NCBI GenBank assembly: GCA_020722575.1
Contig: DYKN01000001.1
Coordinates: forward strand, 130,795 to 194,794
Direction of reading: 5' to 3'
DNA length: 64,000 bases
Origin: Rikenella microfusus
GTDB lineage: Bacteria > Bacteroidota > Bacteroidia > Bacteroidales > VadinHA17
The notes beneath the pieces are model-generated. The model saw nothing but the letters and a program-made list of their open reading frames with translations, did no database searches and was not told the origin of the DNA. The position numbers were made by a program, and so were the translations under genes. This document shows, one piece after another, positions 41,717 to 48,248 of the stretch (position 1 is the stretch's first letter; each line of letters starts with the position of its first letter).

Positions 41717-42526
41717 CTAAACCGGAAAAGAATCGCCGTCCTGATCTTTAATATATGCTTTTATGATATCAAAAATATCTGTCACTTCTGTCATTTCTGG
41801 AAGAGTTTCTCTCAGGGTTTCAATATATCGCCGGTTTTTAACACATTCAAACGTTGGTTTAAAATTAATATCATAAATCCATCCTGCCTGGAGTAATTTG
41901 ATATCATTAACGTTTTTAACATTTTTCATATCAACAATCTGCCTGTTCATTAGCGCTTTATAAACTTCTTCGGAAATTCCCGGAGTGTCAGGCAATTCAA
42001 GTTCGAGAGCAACATTCCGCCTTCCGTTTTTTCTGTGATAATAGCTTGTAACCACTCTCCATATATCAAGTTTATCAGCATCGCGAATAAGTTTGGAATA
42101 GAAGAGGCATGTTTCTGTTTCTTCACCCGGGAGGGAAGCCCGGTTATGATATCTTATTGAGCATAAAATCAGATTCTGAATTTCTTCATTTAATATACCA
42201 AGAACATTATATCTTGTTAAAATTTTTATACCCAGTTCAGCGTGATCCTCTGATTTATGGTCTGAAAATGTTTTATACCGGTTATATTGTTCAAACCTGC
42301 CAATATCATGAAAGAGTGCAATTATTTCAGCCAGATTCAGCTCATTATCATTTAACCCGAGCTGTTTCCCTATGTTAATAATTTCTTCAATTACCCTTTC
42401 TGTATGTTCTCTCTTAATATCTATGTTGCGCTCTAATTCAGGGTTTTTGTAATTAAATGTATGCACATAGTCTGTAAACCAGTTTTTAAGATCATGCACA
42501 ATTTTTTTATCCATTAATATTTTCAT
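41717..42526 (-). CDS. HD domain phosphohydrolase
   Basis: 269 aa. Has H...HDIGR (LFHDIGRFEQ) and a downstream DADKLD. Its start overlaps the stop of the upstream NifX-like gene by 4 nt (ATGA). Confidence 0.8.
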   Translation of the reverse strand: MKILMDKKIVHDLKNWFTDYVHTFNYKNPELERNIDIKREHTERVIEEIINIGKQLGLNDNELNLAEIIALFHDIGRFEQYNRYKTFSDHKSEDHAELGIKILTRYNVLGILNEEIQNLILCSIRYHNRASLPGEETETCLFYSKLIRDADKLDIWRVVTSYYHRKNGRRNVALELELPDTPGISEEVYKALMNRQIVDMKNVKNVNDIKLLQAGWIYDINFKPTFECVKNRRYIETLRETLPEMTEVTDIFDIIKAYIKDQDGDSFPV

Positions 42527-43047
42527 CTGCCTCTTCCTCCCCTGCCTTTTCCGCCACCGATTCCTCTTCCCAATCCGCCACCCATGCCTCTGCCCATTCC
42601 GCCACCGATGCCTCTTCCCATTCCTCTGCCATCTCTTTGATCCGTGCCCATACTTCTGCCTGTTCCGTTTCTGCCATCGCCATCATTTGCTTTGCGTGCT
42701 GAATGAATACTATCTTTTAATGTCGGCTCTTTCAATACCTGAATCTCATCATTCTTAACTTTTCTTACTGCTTCATTAACAGACATATTACGGCACAGGT
42801 AAACTTTACAGCCGTAAGATAATACTTCGCTGTATAATGACGGACCGATATTGCCGACAATAACCTTTTTAATTGCCGGGGTAATAAATTTTCCGATGTT
42901 CTGAACTTCATCTTTACTTACCCCAGTGAAAGCTTCAAATTCCATGGTCAACGGATCTATTATAAGGAAATAATCTGAATGACCGAATCTGCCTGATACT
43001 TTTGAATCCAATGTATCACCTGATGATGCAATTAAATATTTTTCCAT
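42523..43047 (-). CDS. NifB/NifX-family domain protein with C-terminal Gly/Arg/Met-rich repeat tail
   Basis: The N-domain reads IASSGDTLDSKVSGRFGHSDYFLIID. The tail reads GRGMGRGIGGGMGRGMGGGLGRGIGGGKGRGGRGR. Confidence 0.75.
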   Translation of the reverse strand: MEKYLIASSGDTLDSKVSGRFGHSDYFLIIDPLTMEFEAFTGVSKDEVQNIGKFITPAIKKVIVGNIGPSLYSEVLSYGCKVYLCRNMSVNEAVRKVKNDEIQVLKEPTLKDSIHSARKANDGDGRNGTGRSMGTDQRDGRGMGRGIGGGMGRGMGGGLGRGIGGGKGRGGRGR

Positions 43048-43088
43048 AAAGTCAATTAAATTATATTAACATAAAGTCGCGTTTAAAT

Positions 43089-43451
43089 TTAATTAATAGC
43101 TTCAACCGGGCAAACATTTTCGCAAAGCCGGCAGTTGGTACATTCAGCCTCATTAATAGATGCTTTGCCGTTAATCAGTTCAATTGCCTCAATTGGGCAA
43201 TTTTCAATACAAATTCCGCAACCGGTGTACATTTCCATATTTACTTTTGGGATGTTCATTTTTTTCGATGTTAATTGTAAATAATCAGAAAGTTCTTTTT
43301 TGTTATCATTTTCATTGATTGCCTCATCCGGATTGTTAAATATACCACGATCACTTCTGACAAGGGATGTCTTGCAATGAGGACATGTTTCTTCCCGGCA
43401 CGCGATCCTGCTTTGTGAGGTTTGCTGTATCCACATTGCGGGCATATGCAA
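43089..43451 (-). CDS. 2x[4Fe-4S] ferredoxin domain protein; probably the 3' part of a frameshifted Zn-ribbon-ferredoxin gene starting at 43520
   Basis: The C-terminus reads CGICIENCP ... CTNCRLCENVCP. Upstream, a different frame encodes MRRFFNLNRERRSGQKVHNNKQTCICPQCGYSKPHKAG, which joins IACREETCPHCKTSLVR. Confidence 0.7.
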   Translation of the reverse strand: MHMPAMWIQQTSQSRIACREETCPHCKTSLVRSDRGIFNNPDEAINENDNKKELSDYLQLTSKKMNIPKVNMEMYTGCGICIENCPIEAIELINGKASINEAECTNCRLCENVCPVEAIN

Positions 43452-43581
43452 GTCTGTTTATTATTATGCACTTTTTGCCCACTCCGACGTTCTCTGTTCA
43501 AATTGAAAAATCTCCTCATGTTCTGGTAACCATTAATCCAAAAGGTGGTAAAATCTTTTTTTCTAAAAATCAAACAAATTT

Positions 43582-43601
43582 AAATGAACATTTGTTCATT
43601 T
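43582..43601. promoter_or_regulatory. Palindromic operator candidate aaaTGAACA-tt-TGTTCAttt in a divergent intergenic region
   Basis: Perfect 9+9 inverted repeat. On the minus strand it is immediately followed by a TAAATTTG -7 box upstream of the ferredoxin/NifX/HD operon. Confidence 0.5.
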
Positions 43602-43626
43602 AGACTAATTTTAAACAAAAAATTCC

Positions 43627-46293: not shown

Positions 46294-47643
46294 ATGATAA
46301 TAAATAGAATTTATTTTTGCTTTTTTCTGGCAATAATTGCAAATACGGGTCTGTTTGGGCAAAAGGATACTTCCAGGATATTTTTTGATGCCAGCTTGCG
46401 AGAACGTTTTGAATCGTGGAATGGGATGAATGCTAGGAATTATGGAGACCCGAATGGGGTTGGCAACCTTGATGATAATATTTTATTTCAAAGAGTTATT
46501 GCTGGATTTAACTATACCCCGAACAATAAAATAACCATATCAGCCCACCTGCAGGACTCACGGGCGTTTGGCTGGTCATTGCGAAATGCAGAATATCCTG
46601 ATTTGTTTAAGATAAAAGCAAAGAATACGCAAGAGCCCTATTATATAATGAACCCAAACGAAGAGTTTTATGAAATTCATGATTTATATTTGGAATATCG
46701 TTATTTACTAAAAAATATTACGATTAAAGCAGGAAGGCAAAAAATATCCTATGGCGACAATCGTGTTTTTGACCCCGGTGAATGGGGAAATACAGGTCGA
46801 TGGACATGGGATGCACTTAAAATATCTTATAAAAAAAGATCGAATTTTATAGACATTTTTTGCGGTGGCACTAAAATTCACGACCCTGAGAAAGTTTCAA
46901 TACCTTTTACTAAAACAGAATTCTGGGGAGGTGGCATATATGCACAATATGAGTGGAGCAAAATTATGACTGTTGAACCCTTTTATGCAATAAAAAAAGA
47001 GGGATCAGCAGATTACTCCAATGAACTTGATTTCACAAGACAATGGGCGGGAGTACGTTTGTTCAATAATGATTTGCATCATTTTGTTTATGATTTTACA
47101 TTGAACAAAGAATTCGGAAATGAAAGCGGCAAATCAATAAATGCTTTCGGAATAATAGCCAAACTGGGATATCAATTCAATTTTGTGCCGGCTAAACCAA
47201 TACTTGCTATCAGGGAAAGTTATGCATCAGGAGGCAAAAATACTGATAATAAGATTAATACATTCGACCCTGTTTATGGATCAAAAGATCAATTTTACGG
47301 AAGGATGAATATTACATCATGGTCTAATCTGGATGACCGCGAAATATTTGTCACTCTGTCTCCTGTTAAGAACATGAAAATTGAAATGAACTATCACTGG
47401 TTTTACATACCTGTACCTGATGATATAACATTGCTCACAACAGTAAAATTAAAAACAGGCAACCATCATTTAGGTAATGAGTTTGACATTTTTGCCAATT
47501 ATCAGATATTAAAGCAACTGCAATTCATAACTGCTTTTGGGTATTTCAAACCCGGGGATATCCAACCCATAAATACACATGAAGCTAAATACGCAACATG
47601 GTTTGCCTTACAAATACTTTATGATATGAAATTCAGTAACTAA
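46294..47643 (+). CDS. Alginate-export-like outer-membrane beta-barrel (porin)
   Basis: Has a signal peptide, LRERFESWNG, alternating beta-strand periodicity and a C-terminal ...KFSN. The family call is tentative. Confidence 0.55.
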   Translation: MIINRIYFCFFLAIIANTGLFGQKDTSRIFFDASLRERFESWNGMNARNYGDPNGVGNLDDNILFQRVIAGFNYTPNNKITISAHLQDSRAFGWSLRNAEYPDLFKIKAKNTQEPYYIMNPNEEFYEIHDLYLEYRYLLKNITIKAGRQKISYGDNRVFDPGEWGNTGRWTWDALKISYKKRSNFIDIFCGGTKIHDPEKVSIPFTKTEFWGGGIYAQYEWSKIMTVEPFYAIKKEGSADYSNELDFTRQWAGVRLFNNDLHHFVYDFTLNKEFGNESGKSINAFGIIAKLGYQFNFVPAKPILAIRESYASGGKNTDNKINTFDPVYGSKDQFYGRMNITSWSNLDDREIFVTLSPVKNMKIEMNYHWFYIPVPDDITLLTTVKLKTGNHHLGNEFDIFANYQILKQLQFITAFGYFKPGDIQPINTHEAKYATWFALQILYDMKFSN

Positions 47644-47654
47644 TTGTTGACGAT

Positions 47655-47736
47655 TTAAAGGTCGAGTAAGTAAGGGGGAGTTTCACCCCCAAACCTCTAT
47701 CGGAACTGTACGTGAGCCTCTCGATTCATACGACTC
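47655..47736 (-). mobile_element. Group II intron 3'-end remnant (domain V and a D6-like hairpin)
   Basis: Minus strand 47736-47703 reads GAGUCGUAU-GAAUC-GAGA-GGCUC-AC-GUACAGUUC. That gives a D5 architecture with a GNRA loop and an AC bulge. About 25 of 34 nt match the classic D5 sequence as I recall it. A GGGGG/CCCCC hairpin follows. Confidence 0.45.
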
Positions 47737-47803
47737 CTTAAACTCATGCAACCTGTTTTAAGTAAAATATATCAAATAAATAACAAAAATATTTTTATTA
47801 ATG

Positions 47804-47817
47804 TGAACATATGTTCA
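47804..47817. promoter_or_regulatory. Palindromic operator candidate TGAACA-ta-TGTTCA upstream of the DUF5320 gene
   Basis: Perfect 14-bp palindrome with the same half-sites as 43585-43598. It lies 10 nt upstream of a TATATTTG -7 box (47828-47835). Confidence 0.5.
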
Positions 47818-47891
47818 TTTTAAATGTTATATTTGCTTTGTAATAAAAAATGTAATTAAAAAATAAACCGAACAATTAAAAATTAAGTATT

Positions 47892-48248
47892 ATGCCAAGA
47901 GGAGATCGTACCGGTCCAATAGGACAAGATCCTGTTACTGGAAGAGGTTTAGGTTATTGCAGGGGCTATGATTCGCCCGGTTTCACAAAAGGATTTGGAG
48001 GCGGAATGGGAAGAGGTATGGGCTTCGGCAGGGGAGCCGGATTCGGAAGAGGTATGGGTTGGGGCAGAGGCTATGGATATGGCTTCCATTCAGGAGCTTA
48101 TAACCCGGGACTCTTGCCCGGCTACCTCCCAACACCTTCGATAAGCAGGGAAGATGAGATAAAACTGCTTAAAAACCAGGCAGATGCACTTAGACGCTCA
48201 CAAAAAGACATTGAAAAACGATTGAGGGAATTAGAAAAAGAGGGGTAG
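47892..48248 (+). CDS. DUF5320 domain protein with GRG(M/F)G repeats and C-terminal coiled coil
   Basis: N-terminus MPRGDRTGPIGQDPVTGRGLGYCRG is a DUF5320 hallmark. The middle reads GFGGGMGRGMGFGRGAGFGRGMGWGRGYGYGF. The C-terminal helix reads EDEIKLLKNQADALRRSQKDIEKRLRELEK. Confidence 0.75.
   Translation: MPRGDRTGPIGQDPVTGRGLGYCRGYDSPGFTKGFGGGMGRGMGFGRGAGFGRGMGWGRGYGYGFHSGAYNPGLLPGYLPTPSISREDEIKLLKNQADALRRSQKDIEKRLRELEKEG

What the first reader, a model, noticed from the sequence alone, without database searches (positions are those of the whole stretch)
41717..48248. Uncharacterised Zn-ribbon-ferredoxin / NifX-like(RG tail) / HD-hydrolase operon with a matching DUF5320 gene
On the minus strand, three genes are tightly packed. 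They encode a Zn-ribbon + 2x[4Fe-4S] ferredoxin (43520-43089), a Nitro_FeMo-Co (NifX-like) protein with a Gly/Arg/Met tail (43047-42523), and an HD phosphohydrolase (42526-41717, with an ATGA overlap).

About 4.3 kb away sits a DUF5320 gene (47892-48248). It carries the same repeat chemistry and the same promoter-proximal palindrome. There are no nitrogenase genes in the window, so the three NifX-like proteins here (24574, 28373, 42523) are not doing FeMo-co biosynthesis.

The combination of NifX-like, DUF5320 and small Cys-rich/ferredoxin proteins recurs in anaerobes, as far as I recall, without an assigned function. Coupling to an HD hydrolase suggests a cofactor- or nucleotide-linked redox function. 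That last step is inference only.
Basis: partly seen in the sequence, partly recalled or inferred. Interest (0 to 1): 0.7.

Follow-up and report, generated by a model that had tools for sequence, protein, structure and literature searches.

The report
IssA-like iron-sulfur storage gene cluster
This locus of an anaerobic Bacteroidales bacterium encodes a relative of the archaeal iron-sulfur storage protein IssA and a partner protein (DUF5320) under the same DNA operator, but the neighbouring "ferredoxin" gene is broken and the HD hydrolase is only a local add-on.

Summary
Pfam confirms HD (41717-42526), Nitro_FeMo-Co with a Gly/Arg/Met tail (42523-43047) and DUF5320 (47892-48248). The ATGA overlap is real. 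A perfect palindrome, TGAACA-N2-TGTTCA, occurs exactly twice in 64 kb, once before the operon and once before DUF5320.

The "Zn-ribbon-ferredoxin" gene is not an open ORF. It carries a 1-nt deletion and has lost a cluster cysteine. The adjacent metallo-beta-lactamase gene is also a pseudogene.

The function is not unassigned. A NifX-like domain plus a cationic Gly-rich tail is the architecture of Pyrococcus IssA (thioferrate iron-sulfur storage, 2017). Relatives sit beside ORP-type MinD/Mrp ATPases.

Across 145 distant loci:
- DUF5320 lies within 3 kb in 83.
- A small six-Cys protein lies within 3 kb in 77.
- MinD-ferredoxin ATPases lie within 5 kb in 91.
- HD lies within 5 kb in 0.

Single proteins that fuse Nitro_FeMo-Co, DUF5320 and sometimes Fer4 exist in other phyla. 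HD adjacency is confined to part of one Bacteroidales clade.

The palindrome also precedes DUF134 genes, which suggests a DUF134 regulon.

Verdict: a new bacterial variant of a known kind, of moderate interest.

The parts
42523..43047 (-). IssA-like protein: NifX-like (Nitro_FeMo-Co) domain (residues 1 to about 113) plus a disordered cationic Gly/Arg/Met tail (residues 121-174, nt 42526-42687)
   Evidence: Pfam PF02579. AF2 gives pLDDT about 90 for the domain and below 50 for residues 115-172. The best folds are ORP 2wfb and TM1290 1rdu. Tail composition and pI 12. 587 homologues, mostly Bacteroidales.
41717..42526 (-). HD-domain metal-dependent phosphohydrolase, translationally coupled (ATGA overlap) to the IssA-like gene
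   Evidence: PF01966. Invariant H41, H73-D74, H95, H127, D149. AF2 pLDDT 93. Only generic HD-fold matches, all with E > 1e-3.
43089..43519 (-). Pseudogene (or split gene) of a six-Cys 'Zn-ribbon-like' module fused to a 2x[4Fe-4S] ferredoxin. It has a 1-nt deletion between 43403 and 43402, and the first Cys of cluster motif 1 is replaced by Tyr.
   Evidence: Frame translations. DNA alignment with the intact L090 and L091 genes. Protein alignment with intact P0121, P0122 and P0124. Fer4 Pfam hits.
43585..43598 (.). Operator-like palindrome TGAACATTTGTTCA in the divergent promoter region between the operon and the MBL pseudogene. A Bacteroidetes-type -7 box, TAAATTTG (43582-43575, minus strand), starts 3 nt downstream.
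   Evidence: The same site lies 65 nt before the ZnFd start in L090 and L091.
43627..44115 (+). Metallo-beta-lactamase-fold pseudogene. It has an in-frame stop at codon 132 (44020-44022). Similarity continues to 44115, and the C-terminal third is missing.
   Evidence: tblastn with the 259-aa L083 homologue gives 66% identity over residues 1-163, running through a stop codon.
47804..47817 (.). Second copy of the palindrome (TGAACATATGTTCA), 74 nt before the DUF5320 start. A -7 box, TATATTTG, lies at 47828-47835.
   Evidence: It is conserved before DUF5320 in L003/L083, L005 and L088.
47892..48248 (+). DUF5320 protein: N-terminal MPRGDRTGP motif, a Gly/Arg/Met/aromatic repeat, and a C-terminal coiled-coil-like helix
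   Evidence: PF17253 at 81.8 bits. Composition. The same module is fused to NifX-like domains in other phyla.
48270..48298 (+). Intrinsic terminator after DUF5320 (11-bp stem followed by TTTTTATT), so DUF5320 is monocistronic
41663..41677 (-). Weak terminator-like hairpin with a T-run after the HD gene. No terminator is found between the three operon genes.
24574..24918 (+). [quoted passage not shown]
   Evidence: NCBIfam NF041136, positions 265-364, E 6.7e-15. No Pfam hit at 1e-4.
28373..28858 (+). Third NifX-like protein, located in a thioredoxin / OsmC / FeS_assembly_P redox island
   Evidence: PF02579 at 30.6 bits against a cut-off of 26.3. Syntenic in L085.

Best explanation
The core of the locus is an IssA-type iron-sulfur handling pair, and it is not a nitrogenase accessory.

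Proposed mechanism (inferred):
- The 174-aa protein uses its NifX-like domain to bind or nucleate an anionic Fe-S species.
- Its disordered, strongly cationic Gly/Arg/Met tail holds the anionic Fe-S material electrostatically, as proposed for the thioferrate-storing IssA of Pyrococcus furiosus.
- DUF5320 carries the same kind of tail plus a coiled coil. It acts with the IssA-like protein, probably by multimerising or co-coating the same material.
- Both genes are switched by one regulator that binds TGAACA-N2-TGTTCA over the promoter. That regulator is most likely a DUF134 protein encoded elsewhere in the genome.
- The six-Cys/ferredoxin gene, which in relatives would supply or carry electrons or clusters, is inactivated here.
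- HD is a clade-specific co-transcribed accessory of unknown substrate.

Shown: domains, tail chemistry and predicted disorder, gene decay, the operator and its conservation, co-localisation and fusions.

Inferred: Fe-S or thioferrate binding, the role of DUF5320, and the identity of the regulator.
For: - Architecture: a Nitro_FeMo-Co domain plus a 54-aa tail with 26 Gly, 10 Arg, pI 12 and pLDDT below 50. This matches the published definition of IssA and the 'IssX' mesophile clade (PMC5524996).
- Fold: closest to the ORP / TM1290 / MTH1175 group, not to NifX or NafY.
- Context: no nif genes in the window.
- Co-localisation in 145 distant loci: DUF5320 in 83, the six-Cys small protein in 77, MinD-Fer4 in 91.
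- Fusions: Nitro_FeMo-Co + DUF5320, with or without Fer4, in one polypeptide, with DUF5320 scoring above the Pfam cut-off in 5 of 6 tested.
- Operator: 15 perfect palindrome hits in 1.79 Mb of loci (13 distinct sites, including the window's two). All are in Bacteroidales-type loci and lie before DUF5320, MBL, NifX-RG or ZnFd, with a DUF134-Dps pair and a methyltransferase gene in two further loci. One-mismatch copies lie before DUF134, HD and MBL.
- Relatives place an ApbC/MrpORP-like ATPase and two MinD-Fer4 ATPases beside DUF5320-MBL.
Against: - No experiment exists for any bacterial or 'IssX' member.
- The tail has no aromatic or proline residues, unlike the P. furiosus IssA tail.
- Placement in the IssA clade was not tested, because no PF2025 sequence was available.
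- Delta-IssA P. furiosus still forms thioferrate-like iron, so IssA shapes or detoxifies the material rather than makes it.
- The window has no MinD/Mrp ATPase and no DUF134 gene.
- Two neighbouring genes are pseudogenes, so the unit may be only partly functional here.
- HD is unexplained by this model.
Confidence: 0.5

Rival explanations
1. ORP-type function. The NifX-like protein is an orange-protein (Orp8)-like carrier of a non-covalently bound metal-sulfide cluster. It works with MinD/Mrp-type ATPases in Fe-S or heterometal cluster delivery (or cell division), and not in bulk storage.
For: - ORP 2wfb is the top structural match.
- Relatives carry two MinD-Fer4 ATPases and an ApbC/MrpORP-like ATPase next to DUF5320-MBL.
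- MinD-Fer4 lies within 5 kb in 91 of 145 distant loci.
- 24574 matches the MrpORP Di-Nase domain.
- The ORP cluster is described as anaerobe-specific and redox-regulated.
Against: - Orp8 and Orp9 lack the cationic tail, as PMC6345978 states for Orp9.
- No ATPase is present in this window.
- Regulation here uses a different palindrome, with no sigma-54/OrpR evidence.
- The correspondence of Orp5 and Orp7 to the six-Cys and DUF5320 proteins could not be checked.
Confidence: 0.2
2. One reading: a cofactor- or nucleotide-linked redox module in which the HD hydrolase is the catalytic core and the NifX-like and ferredoxin proteins serve it.
For: - The ATGA overlap of NifX-RG and HD.
- HD is directly downstream and intact in L004, L007, L094 and L095.
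- In L172 an HD homologue has a one-mismatch palindrome 48 nt upstream, which suggests the same regulon.
Against: - HD lies within 5 kb in 0 of 145 distant loci.
- Among close relatives it is absent, decayed or displaced in 12 of 17 distinct loci.
- The HD family is about ten times larger than the NifX-RG family (5305 against 587 hits).
- The ferredoxin partner is a pseudogene here.
- The fold search gives no specific enzyme.
Confidence: 0.08
3. The Gly/Arg tails bind another polyanion (RNA/DNA or polyphosphate) and drive condensate formation. The Fe-S link is incidental.
For: - RG/RGG-type low-complexity tails occur on three different proteins of the cluster.
- The HD fold hits include exopolyphosphatase domains, though weakly.
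Against: - Every structured partner module is a metal or Fe-S module: NifX-like, 2x[4Fe-4S], the six invariant Cys + His module, and MinD-Fer4.
- The only characterised protein with this architecture binds thioferrate.
Confidence: 0.1
4. The arrangement in this genome is a decaying remnant with no coherent function. Gene order reflects rearrangement and an insertion, not selection.
For: - Frameshift plus Cys-to-Tyr change in ZnFd.
- Nonsense mutation plus truncation in MBL.
- An ArsR-rhodanese-TauE-porin block lies between MBL and DUF5320, compared with L083 and L088.
- No ATPases or DUF134 gene in 64 kb.
Against: - NifX-RG, HD and DUF5320 are intact and closely similar to many homologues (57-82% identity across the aligned NifX-RG set).
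- Both operators are perfect and correctly placed next to -7 boxes.
Confidence: 0.12

Closest known systems
IssA (PF2025) of Pyrococcus furiosus, an iron-sulfur storage protein that binds thioferrate; and the uncharacterised 'IssX' clade named in the same paper (PMC5524996)
   Same: An N-terminal IPR003731/Nitro_FeMo-Co domain followed by an unstructured, Gly-rich, cationic C-terminal tail of high pI. An anaerobic host. No nif context.
   Different: - The tail has Met but no aromatic or Pro residues, and is 54 aa rather than 70 aa.
- The host is a bacterial mesophile.
- It is partnered with DUF5320 under a shared operator.
- It is co-transcribed with an HD protein.
- Clade membership and Fe/S binding are untested.
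[quoted passage not shown]
   Same: An anaerobe-specific cluster that combines a NifX-like protein, small proteins and Fe-S ATPases. ORP is the best structural match. Relatives of this locus carry the ATPases. Regulation runs through a palindromic site.
   Different: - This window has no ATPases.
- Orp8 and Orp9 have no cationic tail.
- ORP is controlled by sigma-54/OrpR, whereas here a 14-bp palindrome overlaps a Bacteroidetes-type promoter.
TM1290 (1rdu), MTH1175 (1eo1), MJ0327, PH0822 and TM1816: structural-genomics 'NifX/NifB-like' proteins of non-diazotrophs
   Same: Same fold (TM-score 0.64-0.81, normalised to the target) and the same N-terminal GRFG motif region.
   Different: These are single-domain proteins without a tail, and their function is unknown.
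NifX / NafY FeMo-co and NifB-co chaperones
   Same: The same domain superfamily.
   Different: The structural matches are weaker (ranks 14-15, TM-score 0.49-0.55 normalised to the target). No nif genes are nearby. NifX and NafY have no such tail.

Membership tests
IssA (as defined in PMC5524996) | N-terminal IPR003731 / Nitro_FeMo-Co globular domain | tested here: met
   PF02579 at 38.3 bits against a cut-off of 26.3. AF2 domain pLDDT is about 90, with fold matches to MTH1175, TM1290 and ORP.
IssA (as defined in PMC5524996) | C-terminal unstructured, Gly-rich, cationic tail with high pI | tested here: met
   Residues 121-174 have 26 Gly, 10 Arg, 1 Lys and pI 12.0. pLDDT is below 50 with no secondary structure. 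The chemistry is conserved across 34 homologues, but the sequence is not.
IssA (as defined in PMC5524996) | Aromatic (Trp/Tyr/Phe) residues and a Pro-rich linker in the tail | tested here: not met
   The tail has 0 aromatic and 0 Pro residues. DUF5320 does carry F/W/Y within its GRG repeats.
IssA (as defined in PMC5524996) | Phylogenetic placement in the IssA clade (or IssX clade) | not tested
   No PF2025 sequence was obtainable with these tools.
IssA (as defined in PMC5524996) | Binds Fe and S as thioferrate and forms nanoparticles; expression responds to sulfur and iron | not testable with these tools
   Needs biochemistry and transcriptomics.
ORP complex (Desulfovibrio) | NifX-like Orp8-type protein | tested here: met
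   2wfb is the top Foldseek hit (E 4.6e-8, TM-score 0.78 normalised to the target).
ORP complex (Desulfovibrio) | Adjacent MinD-like ATPases with 2x[4Fe-4S] (Orp3/4) and Mrp/NBP35 (Orp9) | tested here: not met
   None is found in the 64-kb window. They are present beside DUF5320-MBL in relatives L083 and L088, and near the HD homologue in L173.
ORP complex (Desulfovibrio) | Sigma-54 / OrpR-dependent divergent operons | not tested
   No OrpR-like gene was seen. A different palindrome overlaps TAnnTTTG-type promoters.
NifX/NafY nitrogenase cofactor chaperones | nif gene context (nifB/E/N/H/D/K) | tested here: not met
   No nitrogenase family is found among the window ORFs.
DUF5320 (PF17253) | Profile match above the gathering score | tested here: met
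   81.8 bits against a cut-off of 27, covering residues 1-114.
2x[4Fe-4S] ferredoxin | Intact ORF with two CxxCxxCxxxCP motifs | tested here: not met
   A 1-nt deletion. Motif 1 reads YTGCGICIENCP, against CTGCG in all homologues. Motif 2 is intact.
HD superfamily phosphohydrolases | H...HD...D metal-binding motif and HD fold | tested here: met
   PF01966. Invariant H41, H73-D74, H95, H127 and D149. All-helical model with pLDDT 93. No specific subfamily is identified; the best PDB hit has E 3.4e-3.

The most novel reading that the evidence does not exclude
A multi-phylum, anaerobe-specific machine for handling an iron-sulfur mineral.
- Three different proteins carry interchangeable Gly/Arg tails: IssA-like NifX-tail, DUF5320, and an unnamed 58-80-aa six-Cys protein.
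- They co-assemble on an anionic Fe-S polymer.
- MinD/Mrp-ferredoxin ATPases load or mobilise it.
- In Bacteroidales the whole set, plus Dps, a Zip transporter, an MBL-fold protein and HD, forms a regulon of the uncharacterised DUF134 regulator acting at TGAACA-N2-TGTTCA.

If true, this would unify IssA with the ORP complex and assign functions to DUF5320, DUF134 and the six-Cys family.
Probability: 0.25. Interest if true: 0.7.

Novelty: new variant of a known kind. Interest (0 to 1): 0.45.

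Why it matters
How strict anaerobes store, detoxify and mobilise iron and sulfide is poorly understood. IssA is characterised in only one hyperthermophilic archaeon, and the ORP complex has no settled function.

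This locus and its relatives offer three things:
- A bacterial IssA-type protein.
- A testable partner, DUF5320, for which the literature search found no functional study. The link is supported by fusions and a shared operator.
- A candidate regulator-operator pair, DUF134 and TGAACA-N2-TGTTCA.

That makes a concrete experimental programme possible in Bacteroidales.

Tried and rejected
- Literature on DUF5320: two papers, neither functional.
- Fievet 2011, the description of the ORP cluster, is not held. A search for DVU2107 / Orp7 / Dde_3197 was uninformative. I therefore could not map Orp5 and Orp7 onto the six-Cys and DUF5320 proteins.
- The supplement of the IssA paper holds no sequences, so no direct comparison or phylogeny with PF2025 was possible.
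- HD: the PDB sequence search, NCBIfam and Foldseek on a pLDDT-93 model gave only generic HD hits.
- The sigma-70 promoter scan is uninformative for Bacteroidetes. I looked for TAnnTTTG instead.
- Programmed frameshifting or a sequencing error as the cause of the ZnFd shift was rejected as less likely:
  - there is no slippery run at TCG-CGT;
  - the same gene also has a Cys-to-Tyr ligand loss;
  - the neighbouring gene has a nonsense codon;
  - all three lesions recur in two other assemblies.
  These assemblies may, however, derive from the same sample.
- The ArsR gene (44675-45016) as the palindrome's regulator was disfavoured. From memory, ArsR/SmtB operators have a similar TGAACA-N2-TxTTCA core. 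However, no site precedes its own operon, and relatives that have the palindrome lack a nearby ArsR gene while carrying DUF134 with a site upstream.
- One context look-up (P0137) found nothing.

Full report
**1. What is in the sequence**

On the minus strand there are two intact genes.
- An HD-domain gene at 41717-42526 (269 aa).
- A Nitro_FeMo-Co gene at 42523-43047 (174 aa).
- They overlap by ATGA.

DUF5320 at 47892-48248 is confirmed at 81.8 bits. It has its own strong terminator at 48270-48298.

The claimed third gene, 43520-43089, is not an ORF.
- The ATG is at 43519, and the reading frame changes inside the cysteine motif.
- A DNA alignment with two intact relatives shows a single-base deletion in a Pro codon. 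The relatives read GCA GGA TCG CCN TGC; the window reads GCAGGATCG-CGTGC, with the deletion between 43403 and 43402.
- Intact homologues of 138-160 aa exist (P0121, P0122, P0124; 56-80% identity, full coverage).
- The window copy has also replaced the first Cys of the first [4Fe-4S] motif with Tyr.

The divergently oriented metallo-beta-lactamase-fold gene at 43627 is likewise dead. It has an in-frame stop at codon 132, similarity running on to 44115, and the last third missing.

All of these lesions are present in two other assemblies of the same organism, L001 (Logan SRR1559028) and L002 (JGI 3300000227). These are 99.97% identical to the window.

**2. The palindrome**

TGAACANNTGTTCA occurs exactly twice in the window, both times perfectly. 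About 0.27 occurrences are expected even when one mismatch is allowed.
- 43585-43598 lies between the operon and the MBL pseudogene.
- 47804-47817 lies 74 nt before DUF5320.
- A Bacteroidetes-type -7 box (TAnnTTTG) follows each copy, 3 nt and 10 nt downstream respectively. The site therefore overlaps the promoter, as a repressor operator would (the positional reading is inference).

In 1.79 Mb of fetched loci there are 15 perfect copies. My composition-based estimate of the chance expectation is about 0.2. All 15 are in Bacteroidales-type loci and all are intergenic.
- Before DUF5320: L003/L083, L005, L088.
- Before MBL: L088.
- Before NifX-RG: L085.
- Before ZnFd: L090 and L091, at the same 65-nt distance as in the window.
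- Before a methyltransferase gene: L008.
- Before a DUF134-Dps pair: L098.

One-mismatch copies lie in these places:
- before DUF134 in L003, L005 and L172;
- before HD in L172;
- before MBL in L083 and L005.

Co-regulation of DUF5320 with the NifX-like gene is thus supported and conserved. The recurrent site before DUF134 is the signature of autoregulation and nominates DUF134 as the regulator (inference). No DUF134 gene lies in this window.

**3. Neighbourhood conservation**

I anchored on the NifX-tail protein in 145 loci from other phyla (Chloroflexota, Planctomycetota, Desulfobacterota, Aminicenantes, methanogens and others).

| Neighbour | Distance | Loci (of 145) |
|---|---|---|
| DUF5320 | within 3 kb | 83 |
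| Small six-Cys protein | within 3 kb | 77 |
| MinD-like ATPase with a ferredoxin insert | within 5 kb | 91 |
| Second NifX-like gene | within 6 kb | 46 |
| HD | within 5 kb | 0 |

Many contigs are short, so these counts are lower bounds.

Among 17 distinct close Bacteroidales loci, HD has these positions:
- intact and directly downstream in 5 (window, L004, L007, L094, L095);
- a fragment in L092 and L096;
- displaced in L085, L099, L003 and L005;
- absent otherwise.

The HD family is large (5305 hits). Its members also occur without NifX-RG, yet in the same kind of island with MBL, DUF134, CRP/FNR regulators, MinD-Fer4, peroxiredoxin and OsmC.

**4. Domain fusions**

In other phyla a single polypeptide carries Nitro_FeMo-Co + DUF5320. 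The DUF5320 part scores above the Pfam cut-off in 5 of 6 proteins tested. In Pirellulales and a Spirochaete the fusion is Nitro_FeMo-Co + DUF5320 + 2x[4Fe-4S].

The small six-Cys family comprises 75 unique sequences of mostly 58-80 aa.
- It has a Gly/Arg-rich N-terminus.
- It has an invariant motif, CxCPxCGx4PHx2GxPCx4CPKCGx2MxR.
- It has no Pfam or NCBIfam model.

The window's ZnFd is a rare variant of this family, fused to a ferredoxin. Three different proteins of the cluster therefore carry the same kind of Gly/Arg low-complexity segment. The modules are shuffled among them, which is strong evidence that they act together.

**5. What is known**

*IssA.* A NifX-like domain plus a cationic, Gly-rich, unstructured tail is the published architecture of IssA (PF2025) of Pyrococcus furiosus.
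- IssA stores Fe and S as thioferrate nanoparticles and can rebuild the [4Fe-4S] cluster of ferredoxin.
- The same paper names an uncharacterised clade of mesophile homologues, 'IssX', with high pI and Gly-rich tails.
- Later work shows that Delta-IssA cells still form thioferrate-like iron, so IssA shapes or detoxifies it.

*The ORP complex of Desulfovibrio* combines a NifX-like orange protein, two MinD-like [4Fe-4S] ATPases, the Mrp/NBP35 protein MrpORP and small proteins. It is anaerobe-specific and redox-regulated.

*How the window's protein compares:*
- The domain model is confident (pLDDT about 90) and the tail is predicted disordered.
- The best structural matches are ORP, TM1290, MJ0327, PH0822 and MTH1175. 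NafY and NifX are clearly weaker.
- Relatives carry two MinD-Fer4 genes and an ApbC/MrpORP-like ATPase next to DUF5320-MBL.
- The window's 24574 protein matches the MrpORP Di-Nase domain.

**6. Mechanism**

The best-supported reading has four parts.
- The locus encodes an IssA-type Fe-S binding or storage protein.
- It has a tail-bearing partner, DUF5320.
- Both are under one operator.
- The ferredoxin partner has decayed, and HD is a clade-specific accessory.

The HD protein has the six-ligand H/HD/H/H/D pattern and a confident model. It has no specific structural relative, so its substrate remains open.

**7. Verdict**

This is a new bacterial variant of a known kind (IssA/ORP-type systems). 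The added value lies in the DUF5320 link, the six-Cys family and the candidate DUF134 regulon, not in the HD coupling.

Noticed in passing
window 23655-31812: A redox / Fe-S island. It holds an FNR/CRP-type regulator with an N-terminal Cys cluster, a NifX-like protein (24574), a thioredoxin-like protein, thioredoxin reductase, a Grx/Trx fusion, GroES, OsmC, a DUF59/FeS_assembly_P protein overlapping a second NifX-like gene (28373), an MFS transporter, a tRNA-Thr_ED domain protein and a methyltransferase. Part of this set is syntenic in L085.
   Followed up: partly
window 31246-31812 and 40980-41642: Two paralogous TrmO_N (TsaA-like) proteins with signal-peptide-like N-termini. TrmO_N genes also recur near NifX/DUF5320 clusters in other phyla (L011, L028, L041, L043, L062).
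   Followed up: partly
window 44675-47643: A block of an ArsR-family regulator (with a Cys-rich C-terminus), rhodanese, a TauE/SafE exporter and an alginate-export-type porin sits between the MBL pseudogene and DUF5320. In L083 and L088, MBL and DUF5320 are adjacent, so this looks like an insertion associated with the MBL truncation.
   Followed up: partly
window 42507-42686 (-) and 47968-48144 (+): Alternative-frame 'shadow' ORFs across the Gly/Arg repeat DNA encode acidic Glu/Trp/Ala-rich peptides in both genes. They are probably a by-product of the repeated GGN-AGR-GGN-ATG codons.
   Followed up: no
L098 1302-2611; L003 18585; L005 19910; L172 6652: The same palindrome, or a one-mismatch variant, precedes DUF134 genes, and in L098 a DUF134-Dps pair. 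This is a candidate autoregulated DUF134 regulon linked to iron storage.
   Followed up: partly
L090 79-998; L091 86-1009: In two metagenome contigs the intact ZnFd gene is divergent from a Zip-family metal transporter, with the palindrome in the shared promoter region.
   Followed up: no
L023 10779-10955 and 74 other loci: A family of 58-80-aa proteins has a Gly/Arg-rich N-terminus and six invariant Cys plus one His (CxCPxCGx4PHx2GxPCx4CPKCG). It has no Pfam or NCBIfam model. [quoted passage not shown]
   Followed up: partly
L083 1402-2241 with window 24574-24918: In these Bacteroidales, MrpORP appears to be split. A stand-alone Mrp/ApbC-type ATPase matches MrpORP positions 2-253, and a separate small protein matches its Di-Nase domain (positions 265-364).
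   Followed up: no
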